A stretch of 63,773 bases of DNA, the filler included, from Guillardia theta CCMP2712 (Eukaryota; Protista; Cryptophyta), in NCBI RefSeq assembly GCF_000315625.1. It is 5 parts of 5 records of this genome, joined end to end, with 100 filler letters (N's around TTAATTAATTAA, not from the genome) between each part and the next. Parts side by side here need not be neighbours in the genome. Positions count along the whole stretch, not along the records: positions 58,273 to 62,117 come from NW_005434117.1; 4 more parts are not named here. One strand, given 5' to 3'. The translations under genes were made by a program, and so were the position numbers. Positions 22,585 through 62,117 of this stretch are shown here, in pieces. The notes under the pieces are model-generated. The model saw only the letters and a list, made by a program, of their open reading frames with translations. It did no database searches and was not told the origin of the DNA. Positions within the stretch are counted from its first letter, which is position 1; each line of letters starts with the position of its first letter.

Positions 22585-22684
22585 NNNNNNNNNNNNNNNN
22601 NNNNNNNNNNNNNNNNNNNNNNNNNNNNTTAATTAATTAANNNNNNNNNNNNNNNNNNNNNNNNNNNNNNNNNNNNNNNNNNNN
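22585..22684. other. Artificial contig linker (N-TTAATTAATTAA-N)
   Basis: 100-nt spacer whose core has stops in all six frames. Occurs four times in the window. Confidence 0.97.
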
Positions 22685-44765: not shown

Positions 44766-45574
44766 GCATGTGTGCCCGATCCCTTTGGGTGACCGTGGCC
44801 GGCCCAAGTACTAAGATGATCCGATCCATTACTCTGGACCCCATATGTTGCAAGTCTGCATTACGTCCAAGCATTCAACAAGATGAAAGCGAACGGTCTA
44901 GTCACAAGCTCAAGCAACTTGAAGAATCCTGCGGGTATTATTCGGATCAGCAATCTAGCTGTGGTTGTCCCCGGGTGTGCCGGTTACAGCAAGGCTCCCT
45001 TCGAAGGCAAGAACCTAGCATCCAGCCAGTTCCTTTCCAAGATCAACATTGACGAAGACTTTGGGAGGGAGCTTATCATTCATGGGTTTGATAAGCATAA
45101 CTCGAACAACAACGAGTACCGCGAAGACTTCAGGCCCGACGTATGCGCTTTGGTCAGGACCGGGTGTACATTGAAGCTCATGGTTGGTGCACATACAAGA
45201 TCTCAAAGGTCAGCCTTGTCAACAACTGCCTTGCGTCTTTCATGCAATACAAAGTAACATGGTAGTGTCAGTGGTAGGGTAGGGTATCTGGGGCGGCCCT
45301 CCTTGGAAGACAAAGCACATTCCCCTGTCTCCTCCTCCTCCCTCTCCCTCCGTTCTTCTTCGTCTTTCTCCTCCCTACTCCATCCTGATTTGCCCTCTCT
45401 CAAACAGAACACCTCTGAAGGTTCTCTCCTATATTCATACTCCAGGCAGCACTTCCTCGAGCCCGTTGGCAGTTCGCTACATTCGATCCCAAGCACTCCC
45501 TCCCCTCCCACCTGCCTGCCCGCTGACAGATCCCCAAGCTCTCAACAACCATCAACCGTGTGGCTCCCCCGGCA

Positions 45575-55688: not shown

Positions 55689-57400
55689 TTAGAAACTCAG
55701 AACGAGTCGGCGTCCTCCACGCTGGGCGCGGCCCTCTTGCGGCAGTCTTGGCCTCCTGGGCGGCGTTCCCCATCCCGGGGACGGAGGGGCGCGGGAGAGA
55801 GAGTTGAGCTGCATGCAGAGGTAGTTGGGGACGGCCTGCATGTCGAGGTCCACGGCGTAGCCCTCCGGGTTGAGCTTGGGTCCGAGGTCGATGTGGACGC
55901 GGCAGCACTTGGGGACGGGGTAGGACGCGTGGTAGGGCTGCCAGTCCATGGACACCGATGGGTCGACCGGGAGCTCCTTGGAAGGGTCCGACAGGATGCG
56001 GAGNNNNNNNNNNNNNNNNNNNNNNNNNNNNNNNNNNNNNNNNNNNNNNNNNNNNNNNNNNNNNNNNNNNNNNNNNNNNNNNNNNNNNNNNNNNNNNNNN
56101 NNNNNNNNNNNNNNNNNNNNNNNNNNNNNNNNNNNNNNNNNNNNNNNNNNNNNNNNNNNNNNNNNNNNNNNNNNNNNNNNNNNNNNNNNNNNNNNNNNNN
56201 NNNNNNNNNNNNNNNNNNNNNNNNNNNNNNNNNNNNNNNNNNNNNNNNNNNNNNNNNNNNNNNNNNNNNNNNNNNNNNNNNNNNNNNNNNNNNNNNNNNN
56301 NNNNNNNNNNNNNNNNNNNNNNNNNNNNNNNNNNNNNNNNNNNNNNNNNNNNNNNNNNNNNNNNNNNNNNNNNNNNNNNNNNNNNNNNNNNNNNNNNNNN
56401 NNNNNNNNNNNNNNNNNNNNNNNNNNNNNNNNNNNNNNNNNNNNNNNNNNNNNNNNNNNNNNNNNNNNNNNNNNNNNNNNNNNNNNNNNNNNNNNNNNNN
56501 NNNNNNNNNNNNNNNNNNNNNNNNNNNNNNNNNNNNNNNNNNNNNNNNNNNNNNNNNNNNNNNNNNNNNNNNNNNNNNNNNNNNNNNNNNNNNNNNNNNN
56601 NNNNNNNNNNNNNNNNNNNNNNNNNNNNNNNNNNNNNNNNNNNNNNNNNNNNNNNNNNNNNNNNNNNNNNNNNNNNNNNNNNNNNNNNNNNNGGATGATC
56701 TCGATGCTCTGATCGTGACACGTCCCCCGGAGTGTCGACCTTTCGTGGCATTGTTCGGCTTCAGGAAGAGCTTGACGAGCGTGAAGGGGTGGATGGTGTC
56801 CACATCCGGGAACAGCGCCCTCTGCCCGGTCTTCTTGTTCTGCTTCTCGAACTCGAAGGTCTTTGTCGTCGTCGAGAGCCGCAGGGTGCAGCCCGCCTGG
56901 ACCAGGGTAGCGACGTCCTTCCTCACGGCGCCCTTGTACTGCTGGTTGCTCTCGTGCTTGTCGAAGGAGTAGATCATCAGGCCGCGCCTCCCGTCCGCAT
57001 CGACATGGATCTCACTCAGGAACTCGGCGTTCTTGAGCGGCTTGTCCTCCAGCGGCGCCTTGCCCCAGCCCGCGGAGAAGGGCGCCAGCACCACAAAGTG
57101 GCTCGGCAGCGACCTGGAATCGCCGCCCGACATCGTCTTCGCCTGGTTGAACACCCCCAGGCGGCAGTACACCGGGTCCACCACCATCGCGATCACCGTG
57201 GGGAGGTTCTCGTGGCGGTCCTCCGGGGAGGGGAGCGCCAGCCCCTCCAGCCACAGGTTGCTGGGGTGGAGGAGCGGCTCGGGGACCAGGAGCTCCGTGT
57301 TGACGGTGGCTTCCTGCATAGCTTCTGCGGTAGCTTCTGGAGCCTCATCGACCTCCATGGAGGCATCGGACTCGGGGCGGTTGTTCTTCTTCATAGGCAT
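55689..57400 (-). CDS. Intronless hypothetical protein, virus-like (middle lies in an N gap)
   Basis: MPMKKNNRPESDASMEVDEAP... is open to the gap at ~56693; coding-like sequence resumes at 56003-55689. Confidence 0.65.
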
Positions 57401-58272: not shown

Positions 58273-58743
58273 TGTAGTAGTTGTCATAGCCAGACAGCGC
58301 TATATATTGACAGCTCTCTACCAGTCATAAAGATGACTGATTTAGCTATGGACAAGGCCGTTTATGGGGTTATATCAAACGTTGAAGAGGGAGATAAGAG
58401 AGTTTATAAGACCGGCAATTGGCATTATGCCTATAAGAAGCTAGATGGCAACCGGTTGATGATTAACGCAGTGGGCGAGGGTGCGATATGGGTGACGAAT
58501 TATAACAACATTCAAAAAATAGACAATGGCGATTATCTGTGCTCATCCCCTATAAGAGGGTATAGTATGGTCCAGAGCGATGACCTTCTACACAGTTACA
58601 CGGTAGCGAAGACTAGCTGCCCAGTTGATTTTATTGATGAGAATTCAGACTGGTATTATAAGAACTTTAAGCATCGATATGAGACCTATGAGGGCAATGA
58701 GTATATATGTGTGTTCATTGGTTGTACATATCACTCAGGTTAA
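58273..58743 (+). CDS. C-terminal domain of a viral fibre/structural-type protein (5' partial)
   Basis: SLPVIKMTDLAMDKAVYGVIS...INAVGEGAIWVTN...NGDYLCSSPIRGYSMVQSDDLLHSYTVAK...DF...FIGCTYHSG*. This motif string ends large structural proteins of algal dsDNA viruses. Confidence 0.72.
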   Translation, partial: CSSCHSQTALYIDSSLPVIKMTDLAMDKAVYGVISNVEEGDKRVYKTGNWHYAYKKLDGNRLMINAVGEGAIWVTNYNNIQKIDNGDYLCSSPIRGYSMVQSDDLLHSYTVAKTSCPVDFIDENSDWYYKNFKHRYETYEGNEYICVFIGCTYHSG

Positions 58744-58757
58744 AATAATAATATAGC

Positions 58758-58814
58758 TGGGGGTTGCGCCCCCCAACGGCGCTGTTTTTTGGTTAAGCTT
58801 TTTTTAAAAGCTTA
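58758..58814 (+). terminator. Two intergenic hairpins
   Basis: TGGGGG-ttgcgc-CCCCCA (58758-58775), then a T-run and TAAGCTTTT-ttt-AAAAGCTTA (58794-58814), just after the stop at 58743. Confidence 0.55.
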
Positions 58815-58827
58815 CATCTTTATAAAG

Positions 58828-58908
58828 ATGACCGTAACAGTCAAGAATAAGAGGAGCGGAGTGTCTGTGGAGGTGAAAAATGATATAAGGAAAAGAAAGA
58901 TATTATAA
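58828..58908 (+). pseudogene. Truncated remnant of the 5' end of the 59434 gene
   Basis: MTVTVKNKRSGVSVEVKNDIRKRKIL* resembles MTVKTKVKNRKADVSVSVNINNK at 59434. Confidence 0.6.
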
Positions 58909-58916
58909 GATAAAAA

Positions 58917-59462
58917 ATGCCTGATTATTCAAAAGGAGTCATCTACACTATCAGATGCCGCACAGATACATCTTTGATATATGTTGGAAGCACACTAAAC
59001 ACTCTCGCTAAGAGATGGGGAGAACATAAGCATAATTGTCTCAACCCAAATCATAAAGCTTACAATCGACAGTTGTATCAAAAAATACGAGAAACCTCTA
59101 TTGATGACTGGTACATTGAACTTTATGAAAAATACCCTTGCCAAGATAGGCAAGAGTTAAATAAGAGAGAGGGAGAGGTTATCCGTGAGATTGGAACCCT
59201 TAACAAATATGTAGCTGGAAGAACTGATAAGCAATATTATGAGGAGAACAAGGAAAGGAAAGATGAATATCATAAACAATATCGTGAGAAAAATAAAGAG
59301 AAGATAGCTGAACAACATAAAAAATGGAATGAAAAAATTCAATGTGAGTGTGGGGCAATTTGTAGTGTGATAAATATAAACAGACATCGGAAATCACAAA
59401 AACATCTTAAATTTATTTCAAACAATAATATAAATGACTGTGAAGACCAAAGTCAAAAATAG
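58917..59462 (+). CDS. GIY-YIG endonuclease with C-terminal zinc finger
   Basis: GVIYTIRC...IYVGST...LAKRWGEHK...IELYEKYPC...ELNKREGEVIREIGTLN; YYEENKE/YREKNKE helical repeats; CECG...RHRKSQKH. Confidence 0.9.
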   Translation: MPDYSKGVIYTIRCRTDTSLIYVGSTLNTLAKRWGEHKHNCLNPNHKAYNRQLYQKIRETSIDDWYIELYEKYPCQDRQELNKREGEVIREIGTLNKYVAGRTDKQYYEENKERKDEYHKQYREKNKEKIAEQHKKWNEKIQCECGAICSVININRHRKSQKHLKFISNNNINDCEDQSQK

Positions 59463-60202
59463 AAAAGCTGATGTAAGTGTGAGTGTGAATATTAACAACA
59501 AATCAGAGGCGAATAACCACTCTAAGAACAAGTATGTCCCACACATCCCATCGTGGCAGGATGAGGGCCAAGCACCACCCCCCCAGACACACATCCAGCA
59601 TGTCATCCCATATTTCAATAAGAATTTTTCATTTGAACCTCAGTATAACAGCAAGAAATACGCAGACAGCACTAACCCAATGATTCCAGATGGCAATAGC
59701 GAGATACCGCAATATATAGCAGCACCCAAACCAGCATCAGAAGAACCAGCACCACCAGCACCACCAGCATCTGGAGCAGCAGGAGCAGCAGGAGCAGCAG
59801 GAGCAGCACCACCAGAAGAACCAGCACCACCAGCACCACCAGCATCTGGAGCAGCAGGAGCAGCAGGAGCAGCAGGAGCAGCAGGAGCAGCAGGAGCAGC
59901 AGGAGCAGCACCTGAACAGGAACTTATTGAGCCGCTGGACTATTGGCCGCCGTCACTCGTCACTCGTTTTAATGAATCTTCACGACGAACGCAACAAAGG
60001 ATGATTGAGACCAGCAATGAAAGATATAGAACACTCTCTAGGTCGTTATCAACTGGCGATAATCTTCTCAGCGCCAGGGCTATCACCGATAGTGGGCTAT
60101 GGGCTATTATCCAGGAAATGCTCGACACAGAGTCTATCCCAAGCTCAGAGGCTGAACAGCATTATTCAACTCTCTTGAACAGAAGATTGAGAAGGAGGAA
60201 TG
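59434..60202 (+). CDS. Viral hypothetical protein with Pro/Ala/Gly repeats (3' end in gap)
   Basis: Overlaps the GIY-YIG stop; duplicated EEPAPPAPPASGAAGAAG block. Confidence 0.7.
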
Positions 60203-60458
60203 NNNNNNNNNNNNNNNNNNNNNNNNNNNNNNNNNNNNNNNNNNNNNNNNNNNNNNNNNNNNNNNNNNNNNNNNNNNNNNNNNNNNNNNNNNNNNNNNNN
60301 NNNNNNNNNNNNNNNNNNNNNNNNNNNNNNNNNNNNNNNNNNNNNNNNNNNNNNNNNNNNNNNNNNNNNNNNNNNNNNNNNNNNNNNNNNNNNNNNNNNN
60401 NNNNNNNNNNNNNNNNNNNNNNNNNNNNNNNNNNNNNNNNNNNNNNNNNNNNNNNNNG

Positions 60459-61713
60459 ACCGTGGATGGGGTTCTTGGCAAGACCGGGGGCTCTTACTAC
60501 AATACCCTCCGCTTTCCTAGGAATACCTTCTCGCTGATTGACAGCCTTTATGATTAAGTTCAATAATGTTGTGGTTCAAAATATTACCGATTATAATGTC
60601 GTTCAAAACATACTATTCGATATCGTCTCGAACAACCAGGACGCAGACGGTCGTATGAATTGCTCTATGTTGAACAACGACCCAAGCGTAAAAGTAGCCG
60701 GCGATTATCGATACATTGGCTGTGGGCCAATCAGCACTACCCTCGTCGATGGCACCACTGCTCTGGACGCATCGGACGATATCTGTAAGGACAGGGCCAA
60801 CTACTATATTAAGAACTGGCTGGGCATCCTCCAGCAGGGCAACGTGAATATTATCGACACAAGTCTGGTCGGGACTATCCAGATTACCATTGGATTTGCC
60901 TCAGCGGCTGTGTTGGCTAAGAGCTACCCCAACGCTACAGATGAAACCACATACCCAAGCCCTGACTACACCCTGAGCGACATCAAGTTCAATATGACTA
61001 AAATCAATATGCCGTCGTGGTGGTATGAGGGCATGAGAACTCAGCTAATGAACGGGACAACCTATTCATTGTATTTCCCGCATTACAATGTCTTCACGGG
61101 CCAGTCGAACCCGAGCAAGAGTCAGACCACTAGATTTACCATCGCTTCAGACAGTCTGGATTACGTTCTCGGAACTTTTATCCCAAGTGACTACACCGAC
61201 ACTACCAAACTCAAGACCTTCGGCGATTCGACTAATAATAAAGACAAAACCATCGATGCTGTCATATCGGGAGGCAAAGGTTCTTCTCAGAATCAGAGCC
61301 GATATTTCCGGCGAAACGGTGACAATTTGCTGAGCTCTCAATGGACGCTTGGCAGTGAGAAGTTGCCCCAGGTCCCGAATACCCTCACGGGCTGTGTCCA
61401 GTCTGTGGTGGAGGCGTTCAACCTCCACCAATCAGCAGACGGCGGATTTTATAAGGGCTGTACTGACATTGAGATGTTTTCAACATTTTTCTTTGCCGAT
61501 ATTTTGAGTCTCCAACACGTCGGAGATACGAGCGGAATTATGCTGGTTTCGGGCCTAGACACAAGGCAGCTCCCAATAATCGTCGAATGGTCCACAAGAG
61601 ATGTTGGAACAACTACTTATTCGACTTCAAGTCAATATTGGACACCATTCATCATCGCCGCAGAGACCCGCAAATGCGATATCAGTGCCGGAAACAGTGT
61701 GAGCATCAATTAA
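60459..61713 (+). CDS. Major capsid protein, PLV-type double jelly-roll (5' in gap; 1-nt frameshift at ~60548)
   Basis: FPRNTFSLIDSL/MIKFNNVVVQNITDYNVVQNILFD; YTLSDIKFNMTKI; SQTTRFTIASDSLDYVLGTF; SRYFRRNG; SGLDTRQLPIIVEW; C-terminal DISAGNSVSIN. All-beta pattern and motifs typical of PLV MCPs. Confidence 0.78.
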
Positions 61714-61742
61714 ACTAAAAATATACACTGATAGTAAAGAAC

Positions 61743-62093
61743 ATGTTTTTGCCACCGACCACAGTCAAAGCCGGCATCAATAGGCATTTGAGCTTCCAGC
61801 AAATCGACAAGGATACCGACCACCATAAATGCTACAATCCAATTAAGCCAAATGACGATACTTATAAGCTCCCATATCCAACGTCGAGCATCTACTATTT
61901 ACAACACGAGACGGCTTTCAAGCCTGATATTTACAACTCAAAGAGCTCATATGAGCCTCTTAATCATGATGACTGGTATCCAATGTATGCGGACAAGCTG
62001 CCAGATAGAAGGATGAACGTGATGTACCAGATGACGCCTATCTCTGAGCTACCAAGGATGCCCATCACCGGTACATCGGCCATAATTCAGTGA
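61743..62093 (+). CDS. Small viral hypothetical protein downstream of the MCP
   Basis: 116-aa ATG ORF starting 30 nt after the MCP stop. Confidence 0.65.
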   Translation: MFLPPTTVKAGINRHLSFQQIDKDTDHHKCYNPIKPNDDTYKLPYPTSSIYYLQHETAFKPDIYNSKSSYEPLNHDDWYPMYADKLPDRRMNVMYQMTPISELPRMPITGTSAIIQ

Positions 62094-62117
62094 TTCCATT
62101 TTCATCCCGCCTTGTAC

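What the first reader, a model, noticed from the sequence alone, without database searches (positions are those of the whole stretch)
58828..59505. GIY-YIG endonuclease apparently inserted into a viral gene's 5' end, supplying a replacement start
Seen: upstream of the nuclease, TATAAAG-ATG opens MTVTVKNKRSGVSVEVKN, which stops at 58908 in the nuclease's A-rich leader. Downstream, overlapping the nuclease stop, TATAA-ATG opens MTVKTKVKNRKADVSVSVNINN, which continues as the full ORF. The two starts are similar in protein but diverged in DNA. Established: free-standing homing endonucleases in phage and fungal mitochondria can invade genes while carrying a diverged duplicate of the disrupted segment, restoring the gene and removing the cut site. 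Inference: intron-less, intein-less homing by 5'-end replacement inside a Polinton-like virus, which I do not know to be described. The alignment is short, so this remains a hypothesis.
Basis: partly seen in the sequence, partly recalled or inferred. Interest (0 to 1): 0.85.

Follow-up and report, generated by a model that had tools for sequence, protein, structure and literature searches.

The report
Nuclease cassette replacing viral gene start
A gene for a likely DNA-cutting enzyme sits 16 codons inside a gene of a probable Polinton-like virus of an alga and brings a foreign copy of that gene's first 30 codons, so the reading frame stays whole while the old start ends in a stop; a near-identical copy without the insert is present in DNA of the same kind of organism, and the enzyme likely spreads by cutting such copies.

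Summary
The layout is confirmed; homing is inferred, not shown. A 648-bp cassette (58876-59523) lies after codon 16 of the gene upstream of a double jelly-roll capsid gene. It holds a 41-bp leader typical of its nuclease family, a GIY-YIG-type ORF, and a foreign leader plus 30 start codons.

A public DNA run holds the occupied path and an in-frame empty path between the same flanks (1 of 3 organism DNA runs laid). The stub matches the empty allele (45 of 47 nt). The new start matches a third, nuclease-free copy (44 of 48 nt) and has lost the E-V-N-I motif that four other versions keep at the junction.

It works like a mirror image of fungal mORF gene hybrids and yeast WHO elements, which replace 3' ends. 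My searches found no 5' version and no Polinton-like case in print. This scan has ten earlier AI notes of 5' replacement in phages and archaea, none seen in a eukaryotic virus. The layout did not recur at 29 other loci of this nuclease family. Cleavage and expression are untested. New variant of a known kind.

The parts
58333..58743 (+). 3' part of the upstream viral gene (frame open from the contig edge at 58273). Probably the C-terminal domain of a fibre protein; that label is recalled, with no Pfam or PHROG hit.
   Evidence: no hit; several diverged copies in run X1
58744..58827 (+). Native spacer of the target gene, shared by the occupied and empty paths: two predicted hairpins, then TATAAAG before the ATG.
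   Evidence: fold z = -1.4, not significant; shared contig 58641-58837 in X1
58828..58875 (+). Displaced original start (16 codons). Its frame runs on into the cassette leader and stops at 58908.
   Evidence: 45 of 47 nt identical to the empty path over 58828-58874
58876..58916 (+). Cassette leader (15% GC), beginning with the family motif at the left junction. Likely the nuclease promoter.
   Evidence: motif in 43 of 69 nuclease loci vs 0-1 per control window; in the window it starts at 58876; likeness to an environmental nuclease contig also begins at 58876 (X7 record 10)
58917..59462 (+). GIY-YIG-type endonuclease ORF, 181 aa, intact, with a C-terminal Cys/His motif. Its tail reads through captured host-gene leader.
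   Evidence: 1,972 relatives at E <= 1e-10; 6 of 34 aligned members hit PF01541, the window's own does not; Y10, G24, R33, H37, Y54, E85, N96 invariant in 34 of 34
59407..59433 (+). Captured leader of the target gene from another viral lineage (ends in TATAA before the ATG), lying inside the nuclease's 3' end.
   Evidence: a nuclease-free third copy matches from 59415 in X1 and X2 and from 59407 in X3
59434..59523 (+). Replacement start: 30 codons in place of the native 26.
   Evidence: empty path rejoins at 59524, codon 31; 59415-59462 is 44 of 48 nt identical to the third copy; 59434-59510 matches a freshwater contig with 7 differences and 2 gaps
59524..60202 (+). Body of the target gene, function unknown, with a central Pro/Ala/Gly repeat. 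Its end lies in the following N-run.
   Evidence: 40% identical over 257 columns to P0001, the only homolog found
60459..61713 (+). Major capsid protein gene (double jelly-roll). Its start lies in the N-run.
   Evidence: 11 hits including the window's own record; the other 10 at 34-71%, among them proteins of two cryptophyte algae; atlas score 0.98 to capsid clusters; Foldseek of the homolog P0123 (mean pLDDT 50) to PBCV-1, iridovirus, Sputnik and mavirus capsids

Best explanation
A cassette made of a leader, a GIY-YIG-type nuclease gene and a foreign leader plus 30 start codons sits after codon 16 of a viral gene and keeps its reading frame whole without an intron or intein, and it likely spreads by cutting nuclease-free copies of that gene near the junction while its own altered start would escape cutting. 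Shown: the two junctions, an in-frame empty allele with the same flanks, the foreign origin of the new start, and its loss of the junction motif. Inferred origin, in two steps. (1) The nuclease first sat in the usual place for this family, between two genes, here in the short spacer in front of the target gene in another virus lineage; this is why its tail now reads through that lineage's leader. (2) It cut a nuclease-free relative near codon 16. Repair copied the donor from the gene body leftwards and joined the cut end to the nuclease leader instead of reaching the upstream gene, leaving the stub. Inferred since then: stub and gene body give homology on both sides of the cut, so the cassette can home as a precise insertion, like a WHO element turned round. 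Translation from 59434 is inferred from the intact frame and the carried leader.
For: Empty path 58874 to 59524 with 31 other letters, in frame (26 codons, rejoining at codon 31), depth 67.8 beside 73.1 for the occupied path. Both junctions are bridged in independent data: one X1 contig 58808-59553, X3 58692-59078, X2 59026-59719, all with 0 differences. Polarity: the ten residues encoded by the 31 letters match P0001 residues 19-28 at 9 of 10 (read by hand), whereas the replacement matches 5 of 10 with a 2-residue insertion; the 31 letters are not in the occupied allele, so the empty allele is not a deletion product. Donor type: a third copy has only 63 letters where the window has 729, so it has no nuclease, and it shares 59415-59462. 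Target motif: E-V-N-I in 4 of 4 other versions (empty path, third copy, P0001, X7 record 16; read by hand), S-V-N-I in the replacement; the shared DNA pattern has no match with up to 1 mismatch at either start in the window. Against X7 record 16, 5 of 7 substitutions fall in the 17 nt 59464-59480 (Fisher p = 0.005) and both gaps at 59479-59484, which corresponds to the 20 nt before the junction. The left junction coincides with the family leader motif. Putative catalytic residues are invariant (their mapping to I-TevI residues is recalled).
Against: No cleavage, homing or expression data. The empty path appeared in 1 of 3 DNA runs of the organism that were laid (X1; not in X2 or X3, which are shallow and patchy). 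It is a 128-nt contig that cannot be tied to a whole second virus copy or told apart from an allele. Only one occupied allele is known, so spread into different backgrounds is not shown. The layout did not recur at 29 other nuclease loci with a same-strand downstream gene, nor in three other geometries (n = 25, 36, 8), although that test is weak. The window's protein has no Pfam hit of its own. The nuclease status of P0001's locus and of X7 record 16 is unknown. The 17-nt zone of the Fisher test was set by what the tool lists, and rests on one contig.
Confidence: 0.62

Rival explanations
1. One-off recombinant. A segment carrying an intergenic nuclease and the start of its neighbour was swapped in from a related virus by an illegitimate join on the left and a homologous crossover on the right. 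The nuclease is a passenger or cuts elsewhere, and nothing homes at this site.
For: The family normally sits between genes, and 0 of 29 comparable loci show a duplicated start. A single occupied allele is known. The empty copy persists beside the occupied one in the same DNA run. Sequences behind the upstream gene vary among relatives (loose ends), so this is a shuffling-prone spot.
Against: The break falls at a motif kept in 4 of 4 other versions and altered in the carried copy, with changes clustered beside the junction. A passenger has no reason to show that. The nuclease frame and its invariant residues are intact.
Confidence: 0.3
2. Local tandem duplication of the gene start, with the nuclease landing between the two copies, which then diverged.
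For: Stub and new start lie in the same frame, 606 nt apart.
Against: The stub is 45 of 47 nt identical to the empty allele, while the new start and its leader are closer to other lineages (44 of 48 nt to the third copy; X7 record 16) than to the stub. The two leaders differ in length and sequence.
Confidence: 0.03
3. The insert is removed from the RNA as an intron, so the stub is exon 1; or the layout is an assembly error.
For: A GT dinucleotide lies at 58873-58874, and the host is a eukaryote. Group I introns occur just upstream of the capsid gene in other cryptophyte PLVs (PMC12220804, passage). The window is a patchwork of joined contigs.
Against: No group I match in Rfam over the contig (1 chance hit, E 0.59). 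The insert is almost all leader and ORF. The empty form lies in a run recorded as probable DNA and has 31 letters that splicing could not create. The joint ends are GA..CT. Ten stops lie in the stub frame before the new ATG, so there is no intein. Contigs from two studies bridge the junctions with 0 differences.
Confidence: 0.04

Closest known systems
Mobile endonuclease ORFs (mORFs) that form gene hybrids in fungal mitochondria: Allomyces atp6; Glomus atp6, atp9, cox2, nad3 (PMC3630166, passages read; PMC4019555 and PMC6279837, passages)
   Same: A nuclease ORF without intron or intein carries a foreign copy of a gene terminus. The native terminus is displaced and stays closer to the relative's gene than the carried copy. 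One Glomus case (atp9) uses a GIY-YIG.
   Different: All cases in the passages read replace the C-terminus and need only bring a stop. Here the N-terminus is replaced, so the cassette must bring a leader and start, which lie inside the nuclease's own 3' end. The host is a small eukaryotic DNA virus, not an organelle.
WHO elements at FBA1 of Torulaspora and Lachancea (PMC7282813, passages read)
   Same: The mobile unit is a nuclease plus a resistance-conferring gene end. The displaced fragment serves as the second homology arm. No splicing. Resistance comes from allelic sequence differences.
   Different: WHO is intein-derived, replaces the 3' end, builds tandem clusters, and has shown cleavage. 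Here: GIY-YIG type, 5' end, one unit, cleavage untested.
Free-standing GIY-YIG (Seg) and HNH (Mob) endonucleases of T4-like phages, 'intronless homing' (PMC2988022, passages read)
   Same: GIY-YIG nuclease outside intron or intein; co-conversion of flanking sequence; signals for the downstream gene embedded in the nuclease ORF.
   Different: These are intergenic, with cut sites hundreds to thousands of bases away, or they split the host gene into two polypeptides (Aeh1 mobE in nrdA, T4 mobA). Here the insertion is inside the gene and the gene is rebuilt in one piece.
[quoted passage not shown]
   Same: Same kind of nuclease in the same kind of virus and host group.
   Different: Described only as standalone genes or helicase fusions, with no target, empty allele or gene-end replacement in what I read. 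Supplements were not opened.

Membership tests
GIY-YIG homing endonucleases | N-terminal GIY-YIG catalytic domain with intact conserved residues | tested here: met
   6 of 34 aligned members hit PF01541 (best E 9.3e-9), the window's protein itself does not. Y10, Y22-V-G24, R33, H37, Y54, E85, N96 are invariant; their catalytic role is recalled. No solved relative at E < 0.07.
GIY-YIG homing endonucleases | Occupied and empty alleles of the same site coexist | tested here: met
   two paths between the same flanks in run X1
GIY-YIG homing endonucleases | Site-specific cleavage of the empty allele and biased inheritance | not testable with these tools
   needs an in vitro assay or a mixed infection
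mORF / WHO-type gene-end replacement elements | Nuclease gene inside a host gene with no intron or intein | tested here: met
   no group I match; separate frame and 10 stops in the stub frame
mORF / WHO-type gene-end replacement elements | Carries a foreign copy of the gene terminus; the native terminus is displaced and closer to the empty allele | tested here: met
   stub 45 of 47 nt to the empty path; new start 44 of 48 nt to a third lineage
mORF / WHO-type gene-end replacement elements | The replaced end is the 3' (C-terminal) end | tested here: not met
   the 5' end is replaced; it works like these elements but is not filed as a member
mORF / WHO-type gene-end replacement elements | The carried end resists the nuclease | tested here: inconclusive
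   sequence only: junction motif lost and changes clustered
mORF / WHO-type gene-end replacement elements | The hybrid gene is expressed | not testable with these tools
   no RNA run that holds the stretch was available
T4-type free-standing endonucleases (intronless homing) | Intergenic position, host gene left uninterrupted | tested here: not met
   insertion after codon 16 of the host gene
Polinton-like viruses | Double jelly-roll major capsid protein | tested here: met
   (the fold is of the 71%-identical homolog P0123, low-confidence model)
Polinton-like viruses | Capsid of the PgVV-like group | tested here: inconclusive
   56% to a Guillardia theta protein, a genome with three integrated PLVs (PMC4642659); no tree built
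Polinton-like viruses | Packaging ATPase, minor capsid, terminal repeats, integration in the host genome | not testable with these tools
   the piece is a 3.8-kb contig between linkers; no genome is held for this window

The most novel reading that the evidence does not exclude
This locus catches the birth of a start-replacing homing element from an ordinary intergenic PLV nuclease. The nuclease captured its neighbour's leader and first 30 codons, hardened them at the cut site, and now drives itself between co-resident endogenous virus copies inside one algal cell line. It would be the first splicing-free homing element with an identified target in a eukaryotic DNA virus.
Probability: 0.3. Interest if true: 0.75.

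Novelty: new variant of a known kind. Interest (0 to 1): 0.55.

Why it matters
GIY-YIG genes are widespread in Polinton-like viruses and virophages, yet the papers I read give them no target and no shown mobility. Here an occupied allele, an empty allele and a donor-type allele are all visible, which names a candidate target to within about 20 bases and makes homing testable with one purified protein and two short substrates. It also shows how an intergenic nuclease can become a gene-invading element without splicing, and it extends start replacement from phages and archaea (earlier AI notes of this scan) to viruses of eukaryotes. The principle itself is known from 3'-end cases, which caps the surprise.

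Tried and rejected
No genome is held for the window, so copies could not be phased.

Relatives of the target gene: none in viral contigs or metagenome contigs; one protein among 4 candidates of near length. Capsid relatives: none in viral contigs. The single nuclease query found none; the alignment found 25 and 79 loci.

Family-wide test: 104 loci plus the window gave 92 distinct nucleases, 91 with a full start, 69 with enough flank. The blind flank test picked out only non-coding AT-rich repeats (L005, L079, L088) and missed the window, so it has little power. The anchored tests found the window alone.

Expression: no RNA holder was listed. One RNA run under the same species label gave 3 reads at 90-95% identity from about 6% of the run; strain unknown, so no evidence either way.

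Environmental runs X6 and X8 matched only the upstream gene and short nuclease-like pieces. The single-sequence fold of the capsid was useless (pLDDT 29). The target protein has no usable Pfam or PHROG hit; one low-complexity match lies in its repeat. The deep profile search and the atlas look-up of the target protein gave no answer, so its function stays open.

Literature searches for a printed 5' or PLV case found none; the library lacks most subscription papers. PMC5626475 (passages) was not relevant.

Full report
Setting. The window is a patchwork: N-flanked stop-codon linkers lie at 22585, 53524, 58173 and 62118, so the relevant piece is the contig 58273-62117 and nothing beyond it can be assumed to be a neighbour. 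The contig holds the end of one gene, the finding, and a capsid gene. The capsid search returned 11 hits, one being the window's own record and ten at 34-71% identity, including proteins of the cryptophyte algae Guillardia theta and Hanusia phi. It scores 0.98 to capsid clusters in the atlas. A low-confidence model of its 71%-identical homolog matches PBCV-1, iridovirus, Sputnik and mavirus capsids. A Polinton-like virus of an alga is the likely home; ATPase, minor capsid, termini and integration could not be checked.

Observation. The coordinates are right. The stub's first 16 codons align with the first 18 of the 59434 ORF at 10 identities with one gap. Shuffles give p = 0.009-0.017 for the whole stub, and it is the best of 1,596 other ATG peptides in the window. 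Anchored on gene starts it beats all cross-locus controls. Unanchored it does not stand out (p = 0.10). The similarity alone would be suggestive only.

Empty allele. Contigs of run X1 fork at 58808 and rejoin at 59553. One path is the window's sequence (746 nt, 0 differences, depth 73.1). The other is 128 nt (depth 67.8): it follows the window to 58874 with 2 differences, has 31 other letters, and resumes at 59524. That gives 26 codons joined in frame to codon 31 of the 59434 ORF, a net insert of 618 nt. Depth here is no copy number, but the two paths are of like depth. The occupied junctions are also bridged in the 2011 study (X3 58692-59078, X2 59026-59719, 0 differences). The empty path was seen in 1 of the 3 organism DNA runs laid; X2 and X3 are shallow and patchy.

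Direction. The 31 letters do not occur in the occupied allele. The ten residues they encode match the distant homolog P0001 at 9 of 10 positions (read by hand), whereas the replacement matches 5 of 10 with a 2-residue insertion. The empty state is therefore the older one for this background, and the cassette 58876-59523 came in.

Left boundary. A leader motif, chosen by eye, lies 20-65 nt before the ATG in 43 of 69 nuclease loci, window included, against 0 of 69, 0 of 69, 0 of 61, 1 of 69, 1 of 69 and 0 of 67 in control windows. In the window it starts at 58876. An environmental contig of a related nuclease begins to match at the same base (X7 record 10). The cassette thus starts with the nuclease's own leader, likely its promoter.

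Where the new start came from. A 10,951-nt X1 contig matches 58519-58685 and 59415-59462 with only 63 letters between, against 729 in the window. It is a third, nuclease-free copy whose upstream gene ends about 25 nt before the ATG. It shares 44 of 48 nt with the window's new leader and first ten codons, and is seen in X2 and X3 too. So the nuclease's tail reads through another lineage's intergenic spacer. In keeping with this, its tail after the last His pair is 18 residues, against a median of 10 in 113 of 120 relatives with the motif, 6 of which are as long. A freshwater contig matches 59434-59510 with 7 differences and 2 gaps (X7 record 16), so this type of start exists in nature.

Sign of immunity. 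The empty path, the third copy, P0001 and X7 record 16 all read E-V-N-I across the position of the junction; the replacement reads S-V-N-I and has also lost a shared Gly four residues earlier (read by hand). The DNA pattern shared by these versions has no match with up to one mismatch at either start of the window; its one hit in the window is elsewhere, at chance level. Against X7 record 16, 5 of 7 substitutions fall in 59464-59480 (Fisher p = 0.005; the zone was fixed by what the tool lists) and both gaps at 59479-59484. This is what a nuclease that had to protect its carried copy would leave, but it rests on one contig.

Nuclease. 1,972 relatives were found at E <= 1e-10. Six of 34 aligned members hit the Pfam GIY-YIG domain, though the window's protein does not. 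Tyr10, Gly24, Arg33, His37, Tyr54, Glu85 and Asn96 are invariant; that these are the catalytic set is recalled from I-TevI. There is no group I intron match and no continuous frame for an intein.

How it most likely works. Shown: anatomy, empty allele, foreign start, motif loss. Inferred: the nuclease sat in front of this gene in a donor lineage, cut a nuclease-free relative near codon 16, and repair copied donor sequence from the gene body back to the nuclease leader, leaving the stub. Stub and body now flank the cassette as homology arms, as the displaced FBA1 fragment does for WHO elements (PMC7282813, passages). I put active or recent homing at this site at 0.62 and a one-off recombinant with a passenger nuclease at 0.30.

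Generality. Negative so far. Among 30 loci with a same-strand downstream gene only the window shows a duplicated start; the next best scored 30 (p = 0.016, with a stop inside the alignment). Three other geometries (n = 25, 36, 8) gave best p values of 0.023, 0.038 and 0.148, as expected from 99 tests. The test is weak and most loci are short.

Comparison with what is known. Fungal mORF gene hybrids (PMC3630166, passages) and yeast WHO elements follow the same logic at the 3' end. T4-type free-standing nucleases are intergenic or split their host gene (PMC2988022, passages). PLV GIY-YIG genes are described as standalone or helicase-fused (PMC12220804, section 12; supplements not opened). Eight searches found no printed 5' case or PLV case. 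Earlier AI notes of this scan report ten start replacements in phages, an archaeal virus and an archaeon; I did not check them. Look-ups by sequence, place and eukaryotic-virus words returned nothing.

Verdict. A real, well-supported start-replacing nuclease cassette in a eukaryotic DNA virus, with empty and donor-type alleles in hand. New variant of a known kind; interest 0.55.

Noticed in passing
window 22585, 53524, 58173, 62118: N-flanked stop-codon linkers show that the window is made of joined contigs; gene order across them is not evidence.
   Followed up: partly
window 60459-60560: The capsid frame shifts by one base at a short T run just before 60550 relative to P0123. A homopolymer sequencing error is likely, since X2 also shows a one-base difference in a T run at 58792; not tested.
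   Followed up: partly
window 58273-58305: Runs X1, X2 and X6 all carry the same other sequence before 58306, so the first 33 bases of the contig may be misjoined.
   Followed up: no
window 58759-58790: The GC-rich hairpin behind the upstream gene recurs at another place in the same organism's DNA (X1, X2, X3; 2 differences), and similar pieces occur in X7. It may be a reused terminator-like signal.
   Followed up: no
window 58306-58743: The upstream gene end is present as several diverged copies in X1 and at about 97% identity in an aquatic metagenome contig whose last letters show a start-like TATAA-ATG shortly after the stop.
   Followed up: partly
window 59720-59920: The target protein has a Pro/Ala/Gly repeat hinge where P0001 has a non-repetitive stretch; both ends are conserved.
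   Followed up: no
window 59434-60202: The invaded gene lies directly upstream of the capsid gene. PMC12220804 (passage) reports group I introns in a short gene at the same position in Rhodomonas PLVs, so the capsid-adjacent gene may attract selfish elements.
   Followed up: no
L009, L056, L060, L069, L075, L098 and others: In 25 of 68 other loci (hand count) a same-strand upstream ORF ends 37-52 nt before the nuclease ATG, that is at the leader. No control was run, and AT-rich leaders are rich in stops.
   Followed up: partly
L071, L082, L084, L099: The ORF upstream of the nuclease ends like another nuclease of this family, suggesting tandem nucleases.
   Followed up: no
L005, L079, L088: Non-coding AT-rich direct repeats of about 50-100 bp lie on both sides of the nuclease.
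   Followed up: no
window 44883-45257 (+) and 56696-57400 (-): Two unannotated ORFs are paralogs, 48% identical over 77 residues, E 2e-23.
   Followed up: no
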